A stretch of DNA of 64,000 nucleotides from Dictyostelium discoideum (taxonomy: Eukaryota). Of this stretch, positions 1,612 through 25,366 are shown piece by piece. A model generated the notes under the pieces. That model worked only from the letters and a program-made list of their open reading frames with translations. It was not told the origin of the DNA and searched no databases. The position numbers were made by a program, and so were the translations under genes. Numbering within the stretch: position 1 is the stretch's first letter; every line of letters starts with the position of its first letter. The stretch covers positions 1,696,001 to 1,760,000 of the forward strand of contig CM000153.2 of the NCBI GenBank assembly GCA_000004695.1, in the 5' to 3' direction.

Positions 1612-3450
<1,839 letters not shown>

Positions 3451-4154
3451 TTTCTTTTTGATTTATTTGTGATTGAACTTTTATATGTTTGAAAATATTA
3501 ATATGGGGGGAGACTATTTTTTTTTTTTAATTTTTTCAAATCAAAAAAAAAATTTTATTTTTTTTATTTTTTTTTTTTTATTTTTTTTTTTCTTTTATTA
3601 TAAATTATTATTTTTATTTTTATTTTTTTTTTTTTTTTAAAAATGAGATACCATCTTATCTTATCAATAATGATCTTGATAATATGTTTATTGTTTATTT
3701 ATGAAAAATGAATTTTTTTTTTAAAAAAAAAAAAAAAAAAATTATTTTCTTTAATTATTTCCAATGTTATTTTTTTTATCAATAAAATTAATTGAAGAAA
3801 AAAAAAAAAAAAAAATAGAAAAATAATAATAATAATAAATATCGCTGAACTAGGAAATATTTTTTTTTTTTTTTTTAAAAATTTTTTTTATTTTTTTATT
3901 TTTTTTTATTATTATTATTTTTAAATATGGAAATGATTGATAAATAAAATATGTCCATATATATTTAAGTTGTTTAATTTTAATTTTTTTTAGTTTTTTT
4001 TTTTTTTTTTAAAAAGTTAGTGATGGGTTATTATATTGTTATTTATTCATTATTAATTCCATTGATTTTTAATTATTTATTATTTTTAGTTTTTATTTTT
4101 TTTTTTTTTATTATTTTTATTTTTTTATTTTTTAATTTTGATTATACAAAAAGT

Positions 4155-4212
4155 TTTGTTTGTTTGTTTGTTTGTTTTTTTGTTTTGTTTTGTTTTGTTT
4201 TGTTTTGTTTTG

Positions 4213-4240
<28 letters not shown>
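4155..4240. repeat. (GTTT)n/(GTTTT)n microsatellite
   Basis: gtttgtttgtttg followed by about 11 units of ttttg, then a poly-T run. Confidence 0.9.
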
Positions 4241-4243
<3 letters not shown>

Positions 4244-4270
4244 TTTTTTTTTAAAAAATGTTTAGTACTA

Positions 4271-5885
<1,615 letters not shown>

Positions 5886-6609
5886 ATTATGTATATTATC
5901 TATCTACTATTATTGTTATTATCTATTACTATTTATTTATCTATTTATTTATTATTATATTCTTATTATTGTTATTTTATTTTATTATTTTTATTTTATT
6001 TTTTTGGTGAGTTTGTGTTTGTGTTTGTGAATGCGAAAATTTATTTCTTTTTTTTTTTTTTATTATTTTTTTTTTTTTTATTTTTTTTTTTTTATTTTTT
6101 TTTTTTTTTATTATTATTATTTTTTATGTACGGTGCACCATATAAAAATTATTTTCTATATTATATATATATACTACACAAATTATTAATTATTTAATTA
6201 TTATGATTATTATGATTGATATGTAATTCTCTTCACTCCCCTTCTCTGAATTTTATTTTTAAATTTCTTTCCCCTATATCTTTTTATTATTATCTTTTGA
6301 TTATCAAAAAAAAAAAAAAGAAAAAAAAAAAGAAAAAAAAAAAACAACAACAACAATAAAAATAGATAACTATAAAATATGATGAAGAGCAAAAATGCTG
6401 TTTTTTTTTTTTGCTATTAATTTTAGATAATGAACAACAAAAGCTGAAAAAAAAATGAAAAAAAAAAAAAATAAAAAAAAAAAAAAAAAAAATGAAAAAA
6501 AAAAATAAAAATAAAAAAAATAAAATAAAAATAAAAAAAAAAAAAATGTGAAAATGAAATTTTCCAGGTTGTCATTTTTGGTCAAAAATTGATTAAATAA
6601 TTTTTAAAT

Positions 6610-8463
6610 TTACTTTTTATTTGTTGTTGTTGTTGTCAAAGGTGATTTGGATGTCATATTAACAGATGATGATGATGATGAAGTTGTTGGAGAAGATTTT
6701 GGTTTTGATGGTGTTATTAAAATAGGTGATTCTTTTTTTGATGGTGTTGGTTTATTTACTGTCGGATTTGAATTTATTGTTGTTGTTGTTAAATTAACAG
6801 AGGACATTGTTTTTGATAAACTCGGAATTTTACCACCACCACCACTACTACTATTATTACCAACACTAGTTGGTGATAAATTTAAAGAGGATGAAGCCTT
6901 TGATAATGTTGGTATTTTTGGTGTTGTTGGAGAAGTAGTAAATGAAGATGATGGTGATGATGATGAAGAAGAGGGTTTTTTAGTTAATGGTGAGGGTTTC
7001 TTTGAAAGTGGTGTTGTTGGTCTTTGTGGTGTAGTTGGTGTTGTTGGTCTTATATTTTGTTGGGTTTGTTGAGGTTGTTCTTGAGGTTGTTGCTGTACAT
7101 TTATTGTTGAAGTTGTTGGTGATGAAGTTGGTGATGAAGTTGTTGTTGTTGTTGGTGATGAAGTTGTTGATGAATATGAAACCATTGGTGAATCTGATAT
7201 ATTTTCAGGATCTTTTTTTGTTACAAGTTTTAAATGAAGTAAATGAAAATCAGGTCTATCCTGTTCAGTATTCATTAATTCTAAATAAGAATTACCAAAA
7301 TATAGAAATGATTTTTGATTTTGATTTTCCCATTCAGCCAATTCCTTTACTAAATCAGTGGTAAGTATTGGATATTCTCTAGCTATAGTTTTACGAAATT
7401 TAGCTTCTTCCAATAATCTAATTGAACTACCTTTAAATCTACTAGGATCACTTGCACTAGTTTCAAAGTTTTTCATCTCACTCTTTATCCATTCCCTTCT
7501 TTTAACTTTATTTAAAATTGATTTCATTGAATCTAATAATTCATTTAATAATTTAATTTCTTTATCAATAATTTCTAATGTTTCAATATTATAATAATTT
7601 ATTTCATTTGAATAATCAATTTCATCATTATTATTATTATTATCATTATTATTATTATTATTTAATAATAAATCTTTTAAATTTCTTTGATTTAATGGTA
7701 TACATAATTGATCCCATAATGATTGTAATGATTTAAATTTTGATTGAAATGAATCTTTAAATTTTAATTTCTTTAAATTTGTTAAATGATTTGATTCTTG
7801 AGTTAATAGATTTATTAAGGATAATGATGGGATTGAAGGTGGTGGTAATTTATTTCTTTTTAATTTAAAGTTTAATCTAGTTTCATCATTTAATGGAATT
7901 GATAATTGTTGATAATCACGTTCAATTGAATTAATTTGATTATTAATTTGTTTTAATCTTTTCTCTTTCATTAGTTCAAATGTTTTAATTATTCCTTCAA
8001 TTTTATATAATATTTGAATTAATGATTTCATTTCTAATTTATTTTTTGAACAATCATCACCATCATCATCATCATTTAGTTTTAATTTATTTAAAATTTG
8101 ATTTAATTCATTATTTTCATTATTTTCAATAGTTGATTCTAATTCTAATTGATTTTTTAAATTTAATGCAATTGATTTTGAATCATTAATTTTATCCATA
8201 ATCGAGTTACGTATATCTTGTAATTTTTTAATTTCATTTTCAATTTCATCAATTCTTTTATTTGAAACTGATATACCAATTTCAATAAATGATGATGAAA
8301 CATATTCTGTATCTTTATTATCACTTAGATCAATTCCTAATTCTTTATATAATTTCATTAATTCTGAATAAACTTCTTTTAATTTAATTTCATTTTTATT
8401 ATATATCTTTTATTATTATATATACATTAGTAATTGATTAATAATAATTATTATAATTATTAC

Positions 8464-16490: not shown

Positions 16491-18131
16491 TTAACTTTCA
16501 AAATAAACTTGAAGTAAACTATCTTCAGCAGGTACACCAACTCTTAATACCATAGTACCTAACATACTTCTACAACCTTGACCAGTATGAACATAAAGAT
16601 AATTATTACCATTTCTCCAAAGTGAATAATCTGGAATACCAGTGATACCAACCATTGTTAATGAGAGTAAATCTGAACGAATACCAATTTGACCACCATG
16701 AGTATGACCAGAGAAAGTGATACAACCATAATCGGTTGGAATGAATTTAAAAGAACCAGGATCATGAAGTAATGCAATTCTTGGTATACCTTGGATGGGT
16801 GGATAAGCAGAACAAACCTCATGGATATGTTGTTGTCTTGCTTTATTTCTATAGTCAAAACCAGTGATTTGAATTTTGCCAATACGAGTTTCAACCAAAA
16901 CACTTTGATCAATTAAAAGTGGACATTGAATCGTCTTTAAAGCTCTCTCTAAAATTTCCATACAACCTTCCTCTAAATCATGATTTCCAACACAAGCGAA
17001 AACCTTTCCATGTGGTAGTTTCTTTAATGGTGCCAATGCTATCTCCAAGGTATTCTCTGGATTGAATGATTCGGATGTAAAGAAATCACCAGTTAATAGT
17101 ACTAAATCTGGATTTAATTTAACGGTACTCTCACAAATCTCTGTTAAACGTTCACATGACATCATTGGACCTAAATGTGGATCTGCGATTTGAATGATCG
17201 AGAGTGGTTGTTTAAAGTCTACAATTTGCTCATTGTGATCTGATAATGGTTGGATTTTAACACGTTTTAATGATTTCTTTGGTGTTATCAATTGTTCATT
17301 CTCCATCTCTTCATTTGATGATGTTTTCAAATAGATGTCTTTTACTTGCCATTTATTTGGTGGACGTGTTATAAGTGTTTGATATAACCCGATTATACTT
17401 AACACCAATGGTATTAACATTATAAACATACCAACCAATGATGGAATGAATGGTACAACCAAATAGAATGGTATCGATAGTATCATTGTTGTGAAGAATA
17501 CCGATGATGGATACGACACTAAATATAAATAAAGTTTTGGACGCATTTTACATTTTGATAATACTAAATGTTGAATGTAAACAGTTGAGTGTAAATAAAT
17601 CAATATGAGCAATGGTAGCCACATAATGCCTCGGTATCTATACCCACTGACAGCATTGTTCTCTTGATCCACCACAAAGAATGGTCTTAAAATGTACATT
17701 GAAAAAAGTATGTTGTAAAGTGAATAGAATGAAAATGATACTGCCATTAATGCAGTGATACCTTTTGATCTTATAAATGGGGAGAATCCCTTCTTCCTAT
17801 AGAAATATATTAAAATTGGTACCAATATCAACCATGATGGTAATCCAAATATATAAAATGGTAATGTTAATCTTCCTTTAACTCTTGCTGCCAATACAAA
17901 TGAAATCGTTGGTAATGATATTGCCAATAAAACAATTACTATCTTTGCAAATTTACTAACTGGATGTCCAATTGATTTCTCTGTTTCTTTATTTAAATTA
18001 CATTTTGCTTCAATATATTTATATGGTTGATTTGATTGATCTGTTGTTGTTGTTGTTGTTGTTGTCGATGGTTCATCCCATTCTTTCATTAAAGACATTT
18101 GTTGTTGTTGTTTTTCTTTTCTATTTTTCAT
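16491..18131 (-). CDS. multi-pass transmembrane protein with C-terminal calcineurin-like metallophosphoesterase domain (TMPPE-like), 546 aa
   Basis: Single exon. The N-terminal half has 6-8 hydrophobic helices. The C-terminal half carries metallophosphoesterase motifs: IADPHLG, GDFF, GNHD, GHTHGG. Confidence 0.75.
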   Translation of the reverse strand: MKNRKEKQQQQMSLMKEWDEPSTTTTTTTTDQSNQPYKYIEAKCNLNKETEKSIGHPVSKFAKIVIVLLAISLPTISFVLAARVKGRLTLPFYIFGLPSWLILVPILIYFYRKKGFSPFIRSKGITALMAVSFSFYSLYNILFSMYILRPFFVVDQENNAVSGYRYRGIMWLPLLILIYLHSTVYIQHLVLSKCKMRPKLYLYLVSYPSSVFFTTMILSIPFYLVVPFIPSLVGMFIMLIPLVLSIIGLYQTLITRPPNKWQVKDIYLKTSSNEEMENEQLITPKKSLKRVKIQPLSDHNEQIVDFKQPLSIIQIADPHLGPMMSCERLTEICESTVKLNPDLVLLTGDFFTSESFNPENTLEIALAPLKKLPHGKVFACVGNHDLEEGCMEILERALKTIQCPLLIDQSVLVETRIGKIQITGFDYRNKARQQHIHEVCSAYPPIQGIPRIALLHDPGSFKFIPTDYGCITFSGHTHGGQIGIRSDLLSLTMVGITGIPDYSLWRNGNNYLYVHTGQGCRSMLGTMVLRVGVPAEDSLLQVYFES

Positions 18132-20647: not shown

Positions 20648-20706
20648 ATAAATAAATGCATGTTACATTATAATTAAAACAATAAAATAAAACTGGAAAA
20701 GAAGAA

Positions 20707-20737
<31 letters not shown>

Positions 20738-21118
20738 TTAATTAAATTTAATTTAATTTAATTTAATTATTACATATAGTTTTATTTTATTTTAAAAAAA
20801 AAAATAAAATAAAATAAAAAAAGTTTACCAAATATTAATTTATTTTAATTGATTAATTTTTTTGATTTTTTTTTTGATTAAAAAATATTCAATCCAATCC
20901 GGATTAAATCAACCAATTCCACGAAATAAACGATTTTTTTATTTTTTTATTTTTTAATATTTATTTTTTTTTTTTTTTTTTTTTTTTTTCCCAATTTTTT
21001 CACTCAACAAATCTCTAAATAAAAAAAAAAAAATACTACACACATATATATATTTATTTAATATATTTATTTAGATGTTCTAATGTTGTATATATATATA
21101 TATATATAAAATTTATAA

Positions 21119-21892
21119 ATGATAATATATTTAAGAACTGATGGATATTATAGTGGCAAAGAAAAGATATCAATAGTAAATGAAAATGTTAGATCAAAAT
21201 TAATTAGATGTAGAAGTTATGTAGTTGACAAATATTCAGATAAACAATTATTATTTTTAAATGGTAAAGTATTGAATGTGCATAAATCATTCTCAGAGAA
21301 TAACATTAAAGAAGGTGATGTAATAGAATGTTCAATGTTTCCATTGGCAACAGTTATCATTCATTATTTAGAACGTAAAATCATTGAACAATGTAAACAA
21401 ATGAAGACATCTGAACCCCAATCTTATTTCAATATGGGTACACTTAGGAAAAATTTAAGAATGGTTAGTGATAATTTCGATAAAATTAAATCTTATCAAT
21501 CTGATGGTTTAAATGGTTTAAAATTATTATTTAAAGATAATGGTAGTATGTATTATTCAATATTTTCATTTTACCTCTATTAATTATCCTACCCCCATAC
21601 TAATAATACCAATAAACAAAAAAAAAAAAAAAAAGTTTCACACAATGAAATTCAAGAGATTTACTTTAATTATGAAACTTTTGATATGCCTCAAAAAGAT
21701 CCATTGGATCATTTTATATCTAGAATTTATAATAAAACCACATCAACAACATCAATACCAATAGCCTTACCACTTACTAAAAAACCAATTATTAATAATA
21801 ATAATGATGATAGTGGGATAATTGTAAATTTGGACGATAATAATAGTGATGATGAGAGAACACCATCCTCACAGTCATTTTCGACACCTAAA

Positions 21893-21962
<70 letters not shown>

Positions 21963-22687
21963 CATATTCAACACCACAAAAACAACAAGCTCAACCTCAG
22001 CAACAATCATATTCAACACCACAAAAACAACAAACTCAAGTTCAACAACAATCATATTCAACACCACAAAAGCAACAAACTCCTCAACAGCAACAAACTC
22101 AAGTTCAACAACAATCATATTCAATACCACAAAAACAACAAGCTCAAGTTCAACAACAATCATATTCAACGCCACAGAAGCAACAAACTCCTCAACAGCA
22201 ACAAGCTCAAGTCCAACAACAATCATATTCAACGCCACAAAAGCAACCAACTCCTCAAGTTCAACAACAATCATATTCATCAACACCACAAAAGAATACA
22301 AGTTTTGAATTAGATAGTTATTTTGATGTTGATAATGAACTAGAAGTCTTTTCACAACCACAAACACCCTCTCAACAATCTGATAAATCGAAAACAGTTA
22401 TTTCACCTATATCAACACCTAAAAGCAAAATCTCTTTAAATGATTTCTCACTCATTAGTCCAATTTTGAAACACAGTACCAATAAAAGTGACTTGAAAAA
22501 GAACAATAGTTTTGATAAAGACATTGACTTTTTTGAAAATAATTTTAATATAAATGTAAATAGTTTAAATAATAGTCTTGGTAGTAGTCAAAATAGTGCA
22601 ACTATTTCGAATAGCAGTAGTCAAAATAGTATCACTGTCTCCCCAAATAACAGTTCAAATTGTATCAATAACGATAATAATAATAAC

Positions 22688-22718
<31 letters not shown>

Positions 22719-22960
22719 TCAGTAATAATTCTCTTGGGAAGAGACCCCTTTCACTATTCACTTCGACAACATCTAATAAAAAACAAACCACAACAACAAC
22801 TACCACTACTACAACCACCCCTACATCTACAACACCTACCAATAAAAAAAATATAACAGATTATTTTTTAGATGATTCCGAAGATGAAGATATTTTTGTA
22901 TCTTCATTATCTTCACAATCTTCCATGTCAAATAAATCAAATTCATCATTAAATAATTCA

Positions 22961-23025
<65 letters not shown>

Positions 23026-25226
23026 TAATTGTAAAGGAGGAAATTCAGATTTAGATTTTTTAGATGATTTCGATTTCGGTTATGAAGATGAAGAGTTCAT
23101 GTTTGATGAATATTCAATTAAAAAAAGTAGAAATGAACTCTCTTCTTCTTCTTCGCAACCATTTATAAATACATGTATAACTACTTCTACAAAAATAACA
23201 TCAACAAATTCAAATAAATTATTATCAAAATCAGAATCAAGTTTAGATACTTTACTTTTCAAAAAACCAAAAACACCTCAAAAAAAACAGAAACACATTT
23301 CTTCACCTTTGCTTCACTCATCTCAACCAATCCCTTTAACAATGGATTCATCACTTTCAAAAGATATTAAAAATTCATTGATACCAATAAAAACTCAACC
23401 AATAACAACTACCACTTCCACTACCACTACTAATAGTAATACAAATACTACCAATAATAATGATAATAGTATAATAAAAATAGAAAAACCATTTAAAAGA
23501 TTAACAAATGGATCAATACCACCAATATTAATATTAAATGCACCACTACCAAATAGATTTAAATTTAAAAGTAATTTATTAGATTTTAAACCAACATTTC
23601 AATATCCACCATTTTCATTATTGATTTCATTATCAGAGCTAAAGACATCAAAAGGTATAAAGACAGTATCAGTAAAAGAGATTATGGAAGGAGGTCAAAA
23701 CTATACCACTCTATGCGATACTCGTAATCCTGAATTTTCAATTGAATTAAAAACACCAAAATTTGCAATTACCAATACATTGATGGTTAATGATTGTTTA
23801 GAATTGGAGGAAGGTAAAGAAGATTCATTCTATATCACTGATTTAGGTTATCGTTATGCTAGAATATTTCAAGATTATCATAATGATTATTTAGAATTTT
23901 GTAAAGTAAACTCTTTAAGAATTAATGTTGCTCAAAATGATGTAACCATTGTAATTGATTCATCAGAGAAATTATCAAATGAATTTAAAAGAAACTTTAA
24001 TGAAATGGGTATAAATTCAATTAATACTTTTCAATTACCATCTGCTGATTTTATTTTCTTAAAAAAGAATTCAAATAATAATAATAATATCAATAATAAT
24101 AAGAATCATTCATTCTTTAATAATAATAATATTTATGATATTGATAGTGGTGGTAATGCATTAATGTTTCCATATATAATTGAAAGAAAAACTTGGAAAG
24201 ATTTAAGTGCATCAGAAAAGGATGGTCGTAATGCTAGACAAATGACAAAGATGAAAGCTTATGGTAAATTAAAAGGTAGATTCTATTTGGTTGAAGGTGA
24301 ACCTTCAAATTATAATTCAGAATATCAAGTTACAACAATTGAAGAATTAAAAAAGAGATTAGATCTTTTAACTACTGCTGATAATTTTACAATCATTAAA
24401 ACAAATTCACCCTATGATACAACTCGTCAAATTGCTATAATTGCAAAAATGTTATCAACTGATCCAATTTTATCAAATCCTTCAAATTTATTATTATATA
24501 ATGATTTTAAAGATGCTGTAACTAAATCAAATTATGAAAAATATCATCAAAATAATAATATTAATATTAATAATATCAACAATAATATCAATAATAATAA
24601 TCCAATTATGGAATTAGCATTAACACAAATGGCTGATCAAACTGATTTATCAGTTATAGAACATTCAAAATCTAAATCTGAAAAAATATGGTTTCAAATG
24701 ACAATTGATCAATTTAAAGAGTATATTCTATCATCAGATTATAGAGATCAAATTAGAAATACAATGAATAATAATGAATATAGTTCAAAAAGAAAGATTC
24801 TTATTATAAATGAATTTAATAAATTTAAAGTACAACAACAGAAATCTCATAATCAATTATTTCAAGATTACCTTTATCAAAGATATAATAATAGAAGTGT
24901 AAATAATATTTCTAAAAGTTTTAGAAATGAAAAAAGTTTATTACTCTCTGATTATTTAGATAATGATATAATTAATCATTATCTATTACAATTGATTCTA
25001 CATTTTAATCTTCAAATATTTATTCAATTTCATGATAGTGAACGTGGAAATGTTGAATCATTTTCATCATTTTCAAAATCAATTGAAAAAGCAATTCAAC
25101 TAAATCAAGATTATCAACACAATCTAAAATTTAAAACTATATTTGCCAAAACAATTCCAGTTTTTAGATCGATAAAACAACAAAGATTAGAAGATTCAAT
25201 TAATTATAGAAATGAATTAGAAAATT

Positions 25227-25299
<73 letters not shown>

Positions 25300-25366
25300 T
25301 AATAATAATAATAATAAAAATCAATTTAGTTATATTGATGATATTATTGATTTAGATGATGATTAA
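21119..25366 (+). CDS. mus81: Mus81-type ERCC4/XPF-family endonuclease with a long low-complexity N-terminal extension; about 1384 aa; 2 exons bridging an in-frame stop
   Basis: Proposed exons 21119..21542 and 21636..25366. The 93-nt intron GTAGTA..aaaag removes the single in-frame TAA at 21581 that separates ORF 21119..21583 from ORF 21686..25366 (same frame). Nuclease core: VTIVIDSSEK .. ADFIFL .. GGNALMFPYIIERKTWKDLSASEKDGRNARQMTKMKAYGKLKGRFYLVEGE, close to Mus81 [39 protein letters not shown]. The N-terminal part has a possible beta-grasp-like segment, polyQ, and about 8 tandem copies of a roughly 13-aa QQSYSTPQKQQ(A/T)QVQ unit (21963..22300). Confidence 0.7.
21895..22300 (+). repeat. coding (CAA)n polyQ followed by about 8 tandem repeats of roughly 39 nt (QQSYSTPQKQQxQVQ)
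   Basis: Periodic tcatattcaacaccacaaaaacaacaa..ctcaagttcaacaacaa units. Overlapping ORFs 21846..22313 (+) and 21888..22367 (-) are alternative-frame readings of this repeat. Confidence 0.85.

What the first reader, a model, noticed from the sequence alone, without database searches (positions are those of the whole stretch)
21119..21700. Mus81-type nuclease: two same-frame ORFs separated by one TAA that sits inside a consensus 93-nt intron; unusual N-terminal module
ORF 21119..21583 and ORF 21686..25366 are in the same frame. The only stop between them (21581..21583) lies between a GTAGTA donor at 21543 and an aaaag acceptor at 21635, spanning exactly 93 nt, so splicing would fuse them. The fused protein would carry a compact beta-grasp-like N-terminal segment (..VRSKLIRCRSYVVDKYSDKQLLFLNGKVLNVHKSFSENNIKEGDVIECSMFPL..) plus about 900 aa of low-complexity, Q-repeat-rich sequence in front of a canonical Mus81 ERCC4 active site (IIERKTWKDL..DGRNARQ). 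A ubiquitin-like front end on Mus81 is not a described architecture. Alternatively the first ORF is a separate small gene in a head-to-tail arrangement.
Basis: partly seen in the sequence, partly recalled or inferred. Interest (0 to 1): 0.5.

Follow-up and report, generated by a model that had tools for sequence, protein, structure and literature searches.

The report
Two-exon mus81 gene with ubiquitin-like head
The two open reading frames are the two exons of one ordinary Dictyostelium mus81 DNA-repair nuclease gene joined by a short intron, and the only mildly unusual thing is that the protein seems to start with a small ubiquitin-like domain that has not been described for this enzyme.

Summary
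ORF 21119..21583 and ORF 21686..25366 share a frame, and the only stop between them is TAA 21581, which lies inside a GT...AG interval.

Syntenic loci from three relatives (another D. discoideum isolate, D. dimigraforme, D. firmibasis) support splicing. Their annotated genes start at the same ATG. Those introns are 94, 151 and 118 nt, so the ORFs there lie in different frames. Sequence conservation stops at the donor and resumes at the acceptor. dN/dS is 0.03-0.14 in exon 1 and at most 0.18 in the 50 nt before ORF2's ATG. The window's shared frame is incidental; its intron is probably 90 nt (93 not excluded).

Residues 1-75 are probably a non-cleavable ubiquitin-like domain. All the evidence for this is sub-threshold or partly circular. 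Residues 76-176 are equally conserved, and their identity with the canonical Mus81 N-terminal domain is unproven. The disordered linker is about 600 aa, not 900.

Overall this is an ordinary gene structure already captured in relatives' annotations. The UBL-Mus81 architecture is a modest, plausible novelty.

The parts
21119..21545 (+). Exon 1 of mus81 (residues 1-142 plus the first base of codon 143). The start codon at 21119 follows an in-frame TAA at 21116.
   Evidence: ORF listing and sequence. The exon is 99/89/83% identical in protein to L005/L002/L003, and it starts exactly at their annotated gene starts. dN/dS is 0.03-0.14 at dS up to 0.52.
21119..21343 (+). Probable ubiquitin-like (beta-grasp) domain, residues 1-75. 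It begins MIIYLRT and has no C-terminal Gly-Gly.
   Evidence: Pfam ubiquitin E=0.004 in 4 of 4 orthologues, below the gathering score; Rad60-SLD E=0.07. The only two hits in 1.8 billion representative proteins are poly-UBL repeat proteins. hhalign probability is 88.8%. An AF2 model seeded with UBL repeats shows the beta-beta-alpha-beta-beta-beta order at pLDDT 67 and matches ubiquitin at TM 0.6-0.77.
21344..21545 (+). First part of the conserved, mainly helical region (residues 76-142). It is a candidate counterpart of the Mus81 N-terminal helix-hairpin-helix domain, but this is unproven.
   Evidence: Four-way identity is 78%. Helices are predicted at 76-94 and 106-118 at low confidence. No significant match to the human, mouse or fungal Mus81 N-terminus was found.
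21546..21635 (+). Intron of 90 nt (GTATGT...AG). An alternative tandem donor at 21543 would give 93 nt. It contains a CTAAT branch-like motif 33 nt from the 3' splice site, AATAAA at 21611-21616, and an A run before the AG.
   Evidence: Orthologous introns are 94, 151 and 118 nt. Identity to D. dimigraforme and D. firmibasis drops to 41% and 33% with many gaps, against 86-93% in the flanking exon sequence.
21581..21583 (+). TAA that ends ORF1. It lies inside the intron and is not a real translation stop of the mature mRNA.
   Evidence: The ORF1 tail after the donor is not conserved in relatives.
21636..25366 (+). Exon 2 of mus81 through the stop codon. Coding starts directly at the acceptor, 50 nt upstream of ORF2's first ATG (21686).
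   Evidence: The segment 21636-21685 is 86-94% identical in the relatives. In codons 144-159 dN/dS is 0-0.18. After intron removal the reading frame is open through to the stop in all four genomes.
21636..21736 (+). Second part of the conserved N-terminal region (residues 143-176, ISHNEIQEIYFNYETFDMPQKDPLDHFISRIYNK).
   Evidence: Conservation continues across the splice junction.
21737..23545 (+). Fast-evolving low-complexity linker (about residues 177-780) with poly-Q, poly-N and poly-T runs.
   Evidence: Four-way identity is 4-66% per 50-residue block (mostly below 50%), with many gaps.
21884..22294 (+). Tandem 'QQQSYSTPQKQQ' units carrying TPQK motifs, which match the full CDK consensus.
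   Evidence: There are 8 [ST]Px[KR] sites in the window protein and 9, 4 and 6 in the orthologues, against about 1.1 expected by shuffling.
23546..24436 (+). Conserved block ahead of and including the nuclease. It has a winged-helix-like segment (judged by eye) followed by the ERCC4 domain (Pfam match 23954-24436), which is interrupted by a poly-N insertion.
   Evidence: Pfam ERCC4 E=1.4e-18. Four-way identity is 80-92% outside the insertion.
24176..24241 (+). Catalytic motif IIERKTWKDLSASEKDGRNARQ.
   Evidence: It aligns with [23 protein letters not shown] of zebrafish Mus81 and with the human equivalent.
24653..25135 (+). Conserved C-terminal region downstream of the nuclease. It is presumed to be the dimerisation/(HhH)2-equivalent region, which was not tested.
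   Evidence: Four-way identity is 72-92%. There is no Pfam match.

Best explanation
The interval 21119..25366 is one two-exon gene encoding the Dictyostelium Mus81 structure-selective endonuclease, about 1385 aa long. A single short spliceosomal intron is removed, most likely 21546..21635 (90 nt), possibly 21543..21635 (93 nt). Its removal takes out the TAA at 21581 and joins exon 1 to exon 2. Translation starts at 21119, not at 21686.

The inferred domain order is as follows:
- Residues 1-75: an integral ubiquitin-like domain that cannot be conjugated or cleaved, because it has no Gly-Gly.
- Residues 76-176: a conserved helical region spanning the splice junction.
- About 600 residues of disordered linker carrying an array of TPQK (CDK-consensus) sites.
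- A winged-helix-like segment.
- The ERCC4 nuclease with an intact ERK...D / DGR..Q motif.
- A conserved C-terminal region.

What is shown: the ORFs, the splice-site conservation, the frame restoration, the purifying selection on both sides of the intron, and the ERCC4 domain.

What is inferred: that the N-terminal 75 residues fold as a beta-grasp, and what they do. As in other proteins with a built-in UBL (Rad23, for example), the UBL would serve as a docking surface for a partner with a ubiquitin- or SUMO-binding element. That partner could be a scaffold, a proteasome receptor or a segregase. The effect would be to control recruitment or turnover of the nuclease, while the TPQK array would give cell-cycle control on the catalytic subunit itself.
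For: Gene structure:
- Three syntenic loci were found through the neighbouring metallophosphoesterase gene. Each carries an annotated gene of 1325, 1213 or 1415 aa that begins at the ORF1 ATG.
- Removing one GT..AG interval (donor equivalent to 21546, acceptor equivalent to 21635) reproduces the annotated lengths exactly and leaves no internal stop.
- Those introns are 94, 151 and 118 nt, so ORF1 and ORF2 are in different frames there.
- The DNA alignment shows 91-100% identity up to the donor, 33-41% with large indels inside (D. dimigraforme, D. firmibasis), and 86-94% from the acceptor on.
- dN/dS is 0.03-0.14 in exon 1 and 0-0.18 in the 16 codons upstream of ORF2's ATG.
- The D. firmibasis annotation was built with MAKER from assembled RNA-seq transcripts plus the D. 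discoideum reference proteome (PMC11193728).
- The N-terminal 176 residues are as conserved as the nuclease (78-86% against 80-92% four-way identity).

Mus81 identity:
- Pfam ERCC4 E=1.4e-18.
- The only nucleases hit in the PDB are MUS81 chains, aligned over the ERK/DGR motif.
- D. discoideum has a mus81 gene that has been knocked out, DDB_G0276519 (PMC2730050).

UBL.
Against: - No transcript data could be examined here, so the junction itself and the choice between the two donors are unverified.
- The intron in this sequence is unusually C-rich (78% A+T) and contains AATAAA.
- The UBL assignment rests on sub-threshold or partly circular evidence. Pfam gives 17.3 bits against a cut-off of 25.4.
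- The E-value of 5e-7 against P0122 sums six near-identical repeats and is therefore inflated.
- A profile of the four orthologues hits no ubiquitin chain in the PDB.
- Single-sequence AF2 was uninformative (pLDDT 44). The better model used UBL repeats as its alignment.
- In the MAFFT alignment, and by my reading, the residues corresponding to ubiquitin His68 and Val70 are Glu and Ser. Canonical ubiquitin-receptor binding is therefore not assured.
- The function of the UBL is pure inference.
Confidence: 0.85

Rival explanations
1. There are two separate genes in head-to-tail arrangement. One is a stand-alone 154-aa UBL-containing protein ending at TAA 21581. The other is a Mus81 that starts at ATG 21686.
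For: ORF1 has its own stop. ORF2 has its own ATG. An AATAAA and an A run lie between them.
Against: - Only 102 nt separate the stop from the ATG, against 471 nt of 85-96% A+T upstream of ORF1.
- The ORF1 tail after the donor is not conserved.
- The 50 nt before ORF2's ATG are conserved as coding sequence, starting exactly at the AG.
- Removing the GT..AG interval gives an uninterrupted 1213-1415-aa frame in three other genomes, where the ORFs are out of frame with each other.
- All three annotations join the ORFs.
Confidence: 0.03
2. The gene is spliced as described, but residues 1-75 are not a ubiquitin-like fold. They would be a lineage-specific conserved segment whose resemblance to the C-terminal half of ubiquitin is chance or compositional.
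For: - All family matches are below curated thresholds.
- Significant alignments cover only residues ~41-71.
- There is no hit to any of the many ubiquitin chains in the PDB by sequence profile.
- Repeat proteins inflate the HMMER score.
- The AF2 model was steered by a UBL alignment.
Against: - E=0.004 is already corrected for all 24,736 Pfam models. The next family (Rad60-SLD) belongs to the same fold group.
- The match is co-linear with a domain that starts at Met1 and is 75 residues long.
- MIIYLRT mirrors ubiquitin's MQIFVKT and the MIIYVKD of a P0123 repeat.
- The only two hits in 1.8 billion proteins are both poly-UBL proteins with different repeat families.
- hhalign gives 88.8% probability.
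Confidence: 0.17
3. The gene is spliced, but the locus also yields a short isoform. Intron retention or intronic polyadenylation would produce the 154-aa UBL-plus-helical protein, so both readings would be partly true.
For: - The retained intron would terminate translation 13 codons after the donor.
- AATAAA at 21611-21616 is followed by an A run.
- The tandem GTAGTATGT donor suggests some splicing flexibility.
Against: - AATAAA is expected by chance in such AT-rich DNA, and it is absent from the D. dimigraforme intron.
- The intron-encoded tail is not conserved.
- There are no data for such a transcript.
Confidence: 0.08
4. The donor is the reader's 21543 (GTAGTA, 93-nt intron, junction residue Val) rather than 21546 (GTATGT, 90 nt, junction Gly-Ile), or both are used as a tandem donor.
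For: Both GT dinucleotides are conserved in all four genomes and both keep the frame. Position -1 of the 21543 donor is G.
Against: All three annotated orthologues use the downstream donor. In my judgement from general knowledge of 5' splice sites, GTATGT/GTACGT matches the usual GTAAGT at positions +5 and +6, and GTAGTA does not.
Confidence: 0.25

Closest known systems
Mus81 (crossover junction endonuclease MUS81; human, zebrafish, S. pombe), catalytic subunit of Mus81-Eme1/Mms4
   Same: It has an ERCC4 nuclease domain with the ERK...D and DGR..Q motif. The overall order matches: a conserved N-terminal region, a winged-helix-like segment immediately before the nuclease (judged by eye), and a conserved C-terminal region. 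A D. discoideum mus81 gene is recognised and has been knocked out (PMC2730050).
   Different: - It has an extra N-terminal ubiquitin-like domain.
- A disordered linker of about 600 aa with a TPQK array separates the N-terminal region from the winged-helix-like segment.
- A poly-N insertion sits inside the nuclease domain.
- The protein is more than twice the length of human MUS81.
- Sequence similarity to solved Mus81 structures is very low (15-18 bits).
- The canonical N-terminal HhH and WH domains are not detectable by sequence.
Genome-maintenance proteins with a built-in ubiquitin-like or SUMO-like domain: Rad23/HR23 (N-terminal UBL), SDE2 (N-terminal UBL, cleaved), Rad60/Esc2/NIP45 (SUMO-like domains)
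   Same: A single UBL sits at the terminus of a DNA-repair protein. The weak second-best Pfam match is Rad60-SLD. The comparison with these proteins' functions rests on general knowledge, not on a test here.
   Different: None of these carries a nuclease domain. The SDE2 UBL is removed at a Gly-Gly site (PMC5131917 turned up; the cleavage detail is from my own knowledge). The domain here has no Gly-Gly and runs straight into the next conserved region.
Poly-UBL repeat proteins P0122 (1200 aa) and P0123 (1005 aa) from the representative library
   Same: They are the closest sequences to residues 34-89 (35-38% identity per stretch). A P0123 repeat starts MIIYVKD, against MIIYLRT here.
   Different: They are arrays of 11 or more UBL repeats without any nuclease. 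The relationship is at the level of the fold family, not orthology.

Membership tests
XPF/MUS81 nuclease family, Mus81 branch | ERCC4 nuclease domain with the catalytic Asp...ERK...D motif | tested here: met
   Pfam PF02732 E=1.4e-18, 67.6 bits against a cut-off of 24. The sequence ...PSADFIF... and IIERKTWKDL are present and invariant in four genomes.
XPF/MUS81 nuclease family, Mus81 branch | Closer to Mus81 than to XPF, EME1, FANCM or ERCC1 | tested here: met
   The only nuclease chains hit in the PDB are MUS81 (zebrafish 2ziu; human 4p0p, 2zix, 9f98). The scores are weak, at 15-18 bits and E about 0.01-0.05. No XPF or EME1 chain appears.
XPF/MUS81 nuclease family, Mus81 branch | N-terminal helix-hairpin-helix domain (human residues ~10-90) | tested here: inconclusive
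   There is no Pfam HHH match at E<=10 and no PDB hit with the orthologue profile. hhalign against human gives nothing. Against a five-species alignment it gives a co-linear but insignificant match (residues 75-124, probability 1%).
XPF/MUS81 nuclease family, Mus81 branch | Winged-helix domain before the nuclease | tested here: inconclusive
   No Pfam match at E<=1. A conserved block of about 110 residues (fused residues ~790-900, 80-86% four-way identity) lies in the expected place and resembles the WH by eye only.
XPF/MUS81 nuclease family, Mus81 branch | C-terminal (HhH)2 and heterodimer with an Eme1/Mms4-type partner; cleavage of 3' flaps, forks and nicked junctions | not testable with these tools
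   The C-terminal region is conserved but matches no family. The partner and the activity need biochemistry.
Ubiquitin-like (beta-grasp) domain | Passes the curated Pfam ubiquitin-family threshold | tested here: not met
   17.3 bits against a gathering score of 25.4. E=0.004 in 4 of 4 orthologues.
Ubiquitin-like (beta-grasp) domain | Profile-level similarity to bona fide UBLs | tested here: met
   hhalign probability 88.8%, E=2.5e-6, residues 41-71 against columns 40-70. The only library hits are poly-UBL proteins. The caveat is that the reference alignment includes those same hits.
Ubiquitin-like (beta-grasp) domain | Beta-beta-alpha-beta-beta-beta topology | tested here: inconclusive
   AF2 with a UBL-repeat alignment gives E2-7, E15-18, H24-30, E44-47, E68-72, mean pLDDT 67. 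Foldseek matches ubiquitin, NEDD8 and the Ddi1 UBL at TM 0.6-0.77. The model is steered by its alignment. The single-sequence model was unreliable.
Ubiquitin-like (beta-grasp) domain | C-terminal Gly-Gly for processing or conjugation (modifier type) | tested here: not met
   The domain ends ...DVIECSMFPLATV and continues into the next conserved region. If it is a UBL, it is the integral, non-conjugated type.
Spliceosomal GT-AG intron | GT and AG boundaries conserved in relatives, with exon conservation ending and resuming at them | tested here: met
Spliceosomal GT-AG intron | Removal restores one open frame where the flanking ORFs are out of frame | tested here: met
   Introns of 94, 151 and 118 nt in L005, L002 and L003. 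The spliced CDS has no internal stop and equals the annotated product length.
Spliceosomal GT-AG intron | Junction seen in RNA | not testable with these tools
   Support is only indirect. The D. firmibasis model comes from MAKER with Trinity transcripts and D. discoideum proteins as evidence (PMC11193728).

The most novel reading that the evidence does not exclude
Group-4 dictyostelid Mus81 may have regulation built into the catalytic subunit itself. An integral N-terminal ubiquitin-like domain would dock the nuclease onto a partner that binds ubiquitin or SUMO (a scaffold, a proteasome receptor or a segregase). A copy-number-variable array of full CDK-consensus TPQK sites would gate this through the cell cycle. 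In yeast and animals these jobs are done on Mms4/EME1 and SLX4. This would be a previously undescribed Mus81 architecture and control logic.
Probability: 0.2. Interest if true: 0.55.

Novelty: new variant of a known kind. Interest (0 to 1): 0.3.

Why it matters
The main value is for annotation. The start of this Mus81 is 21119, not 21686, and the stop at 21581 is intronic. Any construct, knock-out or tagging design that begins at the ORF2 ATG would drop 159 conserved residues.

Biologically, Mus81 activity has to be restrained and released at the right time. In known systems this is done through partner proteins. A ubiquitin-like domain and a cluster of CDK-type sites on the nuclease itself would be a different arrangement. 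It is easy to test in Dictyostelium, where mus81 knock-outs already exist. The claim is modest: the domain call is not yet secure, its distribution beyond three close relatives is unknown, and no function has been shown.

Tried and rejected
- Word-indexed protein search with the N-terminal 175 aa: no hit.
- Same search with the WH and nuclease region: only a 238-aa D. dimigraforme fragment. This proved to be a stray, non-syntenic partial duplicate of the gene's 3' end, so it is useless for the N-terminus.
- Exact look-up of ORF1, ORF2 and both spliced products: none is in the collection. The libraries also failed to return the 1213-1415-aa orthologues that are called on L002, L003 and L005. 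Absence of hits therefore says nothing about distribution.
- Synteny through the neighbouring gene in D. purpureum, P. violaceum, C. fasciculata, H. album and A. subglobosum: mus81 is not adjacent there.
- Two metagenome scans, with the N-terminal alignment and the nuclease alignment: nothing.
- PDB sequence searches with the N-terminus, as a single sequence and as a profile: no meaningful hit.
- hhalign of the N-terminal region against Mus81 N-terminal HhH sequences: insignificant.
- Single-sequence AlphaFold of residues 1-178: pLDDT 44, unusable.
- Foldseek against AFDB, intended to find the D. discoideum UniProt model: library not available.
- An untargeted blastn of the window against L001 gave only low-complexity noise.
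- Rejected idea: that the shared frame implies read-through or recoding of the TAA. The relatives have introns whose lengths are not multiples of three.

Full report
**1. The observation**

Reading the sequence, listing ORFs and a scripted check confirm every coordinate.
- ORF1 runs from ATG 21119, which follows an in-frame TAA at 21116, to TAA 21581..21583.
- ORF2 runs from ATG 21686 to TAA 25364..25366.
- Both are in the same frame, and TAA 21581 is the only in-frame stop in between.
- GTAGTA starts at 21543 and an AG ends at 21635, which is 93 nt.
- A second GT three bases downstream (21546, GTATGT) gives a 90-nt interval that also keeps the frame.
- The interval is 78% A+T, hardly different from exon 1 at 76%. 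The real intergenic region upstream of ORF1 (20650-21118) is 85-96% A+T.

**2. What the long ORF encodes**

Pfam finds one domain in ORF2: ERCC4, at E=1.4e-18. Searches of solved structures with the single sequence and with a four-species profile return MUS81 chains as the only nucleases. These are zebrafish 2ziu and human 4p0p, 2zix and 9f98. They align over YIIERK..DL....DGR...Q, but at only 15-18 bits. D. discoideum has a recognised mus81 gene, DDB_G0276519. Its knock-out is not cisplatin-sensitive (PMC2730050; PMC8529158). I could not verify that this window is that exact locus, but nothing argues otherwise.

**3. Getting related sequences**

The protein libraries returned nothing for the N-terminus. 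For the nuclease region they returned only a 238-aa D. dimigraforme fragment. Exact look-ups of ORF1, ORF2 and both spliced products failed. The D. dimigraforme fragment sits in a non-syntenic locus (L001). It covers only the last ~245 residues and is 94% identical in DNA to that species' own mus81, so it is a recent partial duplicate.

I therefore searched with the neighbouring genes. The 546-aa metallophosphoesterase at 16491..18131 (-) gave orthologues across dictyostelids. Fetching their loci gave syntenic mus81 genes in three genomes:
- another D. discoideum isolate (L005, gene 3149..7220, 1325 aa);
- D. dimigraforme (L002, 3357..7149, 1213 aa);
- D. firmibasis (L003, 1202..5567, 1415 aa).

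In D. purpureum and four more distant species, mus81 is not next to that gene.

**4. The intron**

ORF1 is 99%, 89% and 83% identical in protein in L005, L002 and L003. In each case it starts exactly at the annotated gene start. In all three, ORF1 and the downstream ORF are in different frames.

Removing one GT..AG interval reproduces the annotated product lengths exactly, with no internal stop. The donor corresponds to window 21546 and the acceptor to window 21635. The introns are 94, 151 and 118 nt.

The DNA alignment (A1; counted) shows the following identities to the window, given as D. dimigraforme / D. firmibasis:

| Segment | Identity |
|---|---|
| Last 76 nt of exon 1 | 91% / 93% |
| Intron | 41% / 33%, with about 60 gapped columns each |
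| 50 nt between the acceptor and ORF2's ATG | 86% / 90% |

Nei-Gojobori estimates give dN/dS of 0.07 and 0.14 for exon 1 at dS about 0.5. For the 16 codons upstream of ORF2's ATG they give 0.18 and 0.04.

So the coding sequence stops at the donor and resumes at the acceptor, and translation does not begin at 21686. A CTAAT branch-like motif lies 24-33 nt from the AG in three of the four introns. The D. firmibasis annotation used assembled RNA-seq transcripts and D. discoideum proteins as evidence (PMC11193728). That is indirect transcript or prior-annotation support.

The shared frame in the window is therefore incidental. Both GTs of the GT(A/G)GTA(T/C)GT donor are conserved and both keep the frame. 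The annotations use the downstream one, which is also closer to the usual GTAAGT at positions +5 and +6 (my judgement from general knowledge). Only RNA can settle this.

**5. The N-terminal module**

A four-way protein alignment shows three conservation regimes:
- residues 1-150 at 78-86% identity, falling to 60% in the 151-200 block as the linker begins near residue 177;
- residues ~200-750 at 4-56% identity with many gaps;
- the block before the nuclease, the nuclease, and much of the C-terminus at 72-92%.

The front end is thus as constrained as the catalytic core. The linker is about 600 residues, not 900.

Evidence that residues 1-75 are ubiquitin-like:
- Pfam ubiquitin hits all four orthologues at E about 0.004 (residues 41-71 against model positions 37-67 of 72). 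This is below the curated threshold. Rad60-SLD is second at E=0.07.
- An exhaustive HMMER search of 1.8 billion representative proteins with residues 1-141 found only two proteins, both arrays of ubiquitin-like repeats (E=5e-7 and 4e-4). These E-values are inflated because near-identical repeats add up.
- hhalign of the orthologues against ubiquitin, NEDD8 and those repeats gives 88.8% probability over residues 41-71.
- MAFFT aligns the whole 75 residues to the repeats. MIIYLRT lies over MQIYVKD/MIIYVKD. There is a 3-residue insertion in the first hairpin, a 5-residue deletion before the helix and a 4-residue insertion after it.
- AlphaFold seeded with that alignment gives the beta-beta-alpha-beta-beta-beta order at mean pLDDT 67. 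Foldseek then matches ubiquitin, NEDD8 and the Ddi1 UBL at TM 0.6-0.77. This last step is partly circular.

Evidence against:
- A profile of the four orthologues hits no ubiquitin chain in the PDB.
- The single-sequence model was useless.

I put the UBL fold at about 0.8. There is no Gly-Gly, so the domain is not a cleavable or conjugatable modifier.

**6. Residues 76-176**

This region spans the splice junction and is mostly invariant. Low-confidence helices are predicted. By position it should correspond to the Mus81 N-terminal helix-hairpin-helix domain, and by eye there is some resemblance. However, hhalign against the verified human sequence (PDB 6vwb) finds nothing. The question is undecided.

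**7. Mechanism**

Shown: a two-exon gene, and an intact ERCC4 catalytic motif.

Inferred from general knowledge of integral UBL domains (Rad23, for example) and of Mus81 regulation through partners: the UBL is a docking surface for a partner with a ubiquitin- or SUMO-binding element, controlling recruitment or turnover.

The linker carries 8 full CDK-consensus sites, mostly TPQK in tandem QQQSYSTPQKQQ units. The relatives have 9, 4 and 6, against about 1.1 expected by shuffling. This suggests cell-cycle phosphorylation of the catalytic subunit itself.

In the MAFFT alignment, and by my reading, the positions matching ubiquitin His68 and Val70 are Glu and Ser. Canonical receptor binding is therefore not a given.

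**8. Novelty**

The gene structure is ordinary and is already present in the annotations of three relatives. A UBL at the front of Mus81 did not turn up in two full-text searches, nor in the two Dictyostelium repair papers checked for Mus81 mentions. I could not consult domain databases for the D. discoideum entry, and the AFDB library was unavailable. Two metagenome scans found no further relatives. The distribution of the module beyond group-4 species is therefore unknown.

**Verdict**

It is a new variant of a known kind, of low to moderate interest.

Noticed in passing
window 21884-22294 (fused protein residues 226-362): There is a tandem array of QQQSYSTPQKQQ-type units carrying TPQK, the full CDK consensus. 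The window protein has 8 [ST]Px[KR] sites and the three orthologues have 9, 4 and 6, against about 1.1 expected by shuffling. Copy number differs between genomes.
   Followed up: partly
L001:9956-10755 (D. dimigraforme, JBTAPM010000072.1): This is a stray partial duplicate of the 3' end of mus81. It is 94% identical in DNA to the species' own mus81 at L002:3441-4327 and is annotated as a 238-aa hypothetical protein. The locus is non-syntenic and directly abuts a multi-intron GFA-domain gene.
   Followed up: partly
L005:3149-7220 versus window 21119-25366: The isolate labelled D. discoideum (GCA_054859385.1) differs from the window at dS about 0.09 in exon 1. Its intron is 94 nt rather than 90, and its protein is 1325 aa rather than 1385. 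The window and that isolate are therefore not the same lineage.
   Followed up: no
window ~24040-24150 (fused residues ~953-985): An Asn-rich insertion interrupts the ERCC4 domain between the ADF aspartate and the ERK motif. It varies in length between species, while the flanking catalytic residues are invariant.
   Followed up: no
window 16491-18131 (-): This 546-aa membrane metallophosphoesterase is conserved across dictyostelids. Outside them, the best matches in the search were bacterial (Myxococcota/Polyangiaceae) proteins at about 40% identity. That hints at a possible horizontal origin.
   Followed up: no
window 21543-21551: The motif GTAGTATGT is a tandem donor with two GTs 3 nt apart. 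It is conserved as GT(A/G)GTA(T/C)GT in all four genomes. It could give two isoforms that differ by Val against Gly-Ile at the junction.
   Followed up: partly
window 21611-21635: AATAAA followed by a run of 17 A lies just before the acceptor AG inside the intron. AATAAA is also present in the L005 and L003 introns but not in L002.
   Followed up: partly
protein libraries: The searchable protein collections returned none of the mus81 products of 1213-1415 aa that are called on L002, L003 and L005. Missing hits for this gene should not be read as absence in other species.
   Followed up: yes
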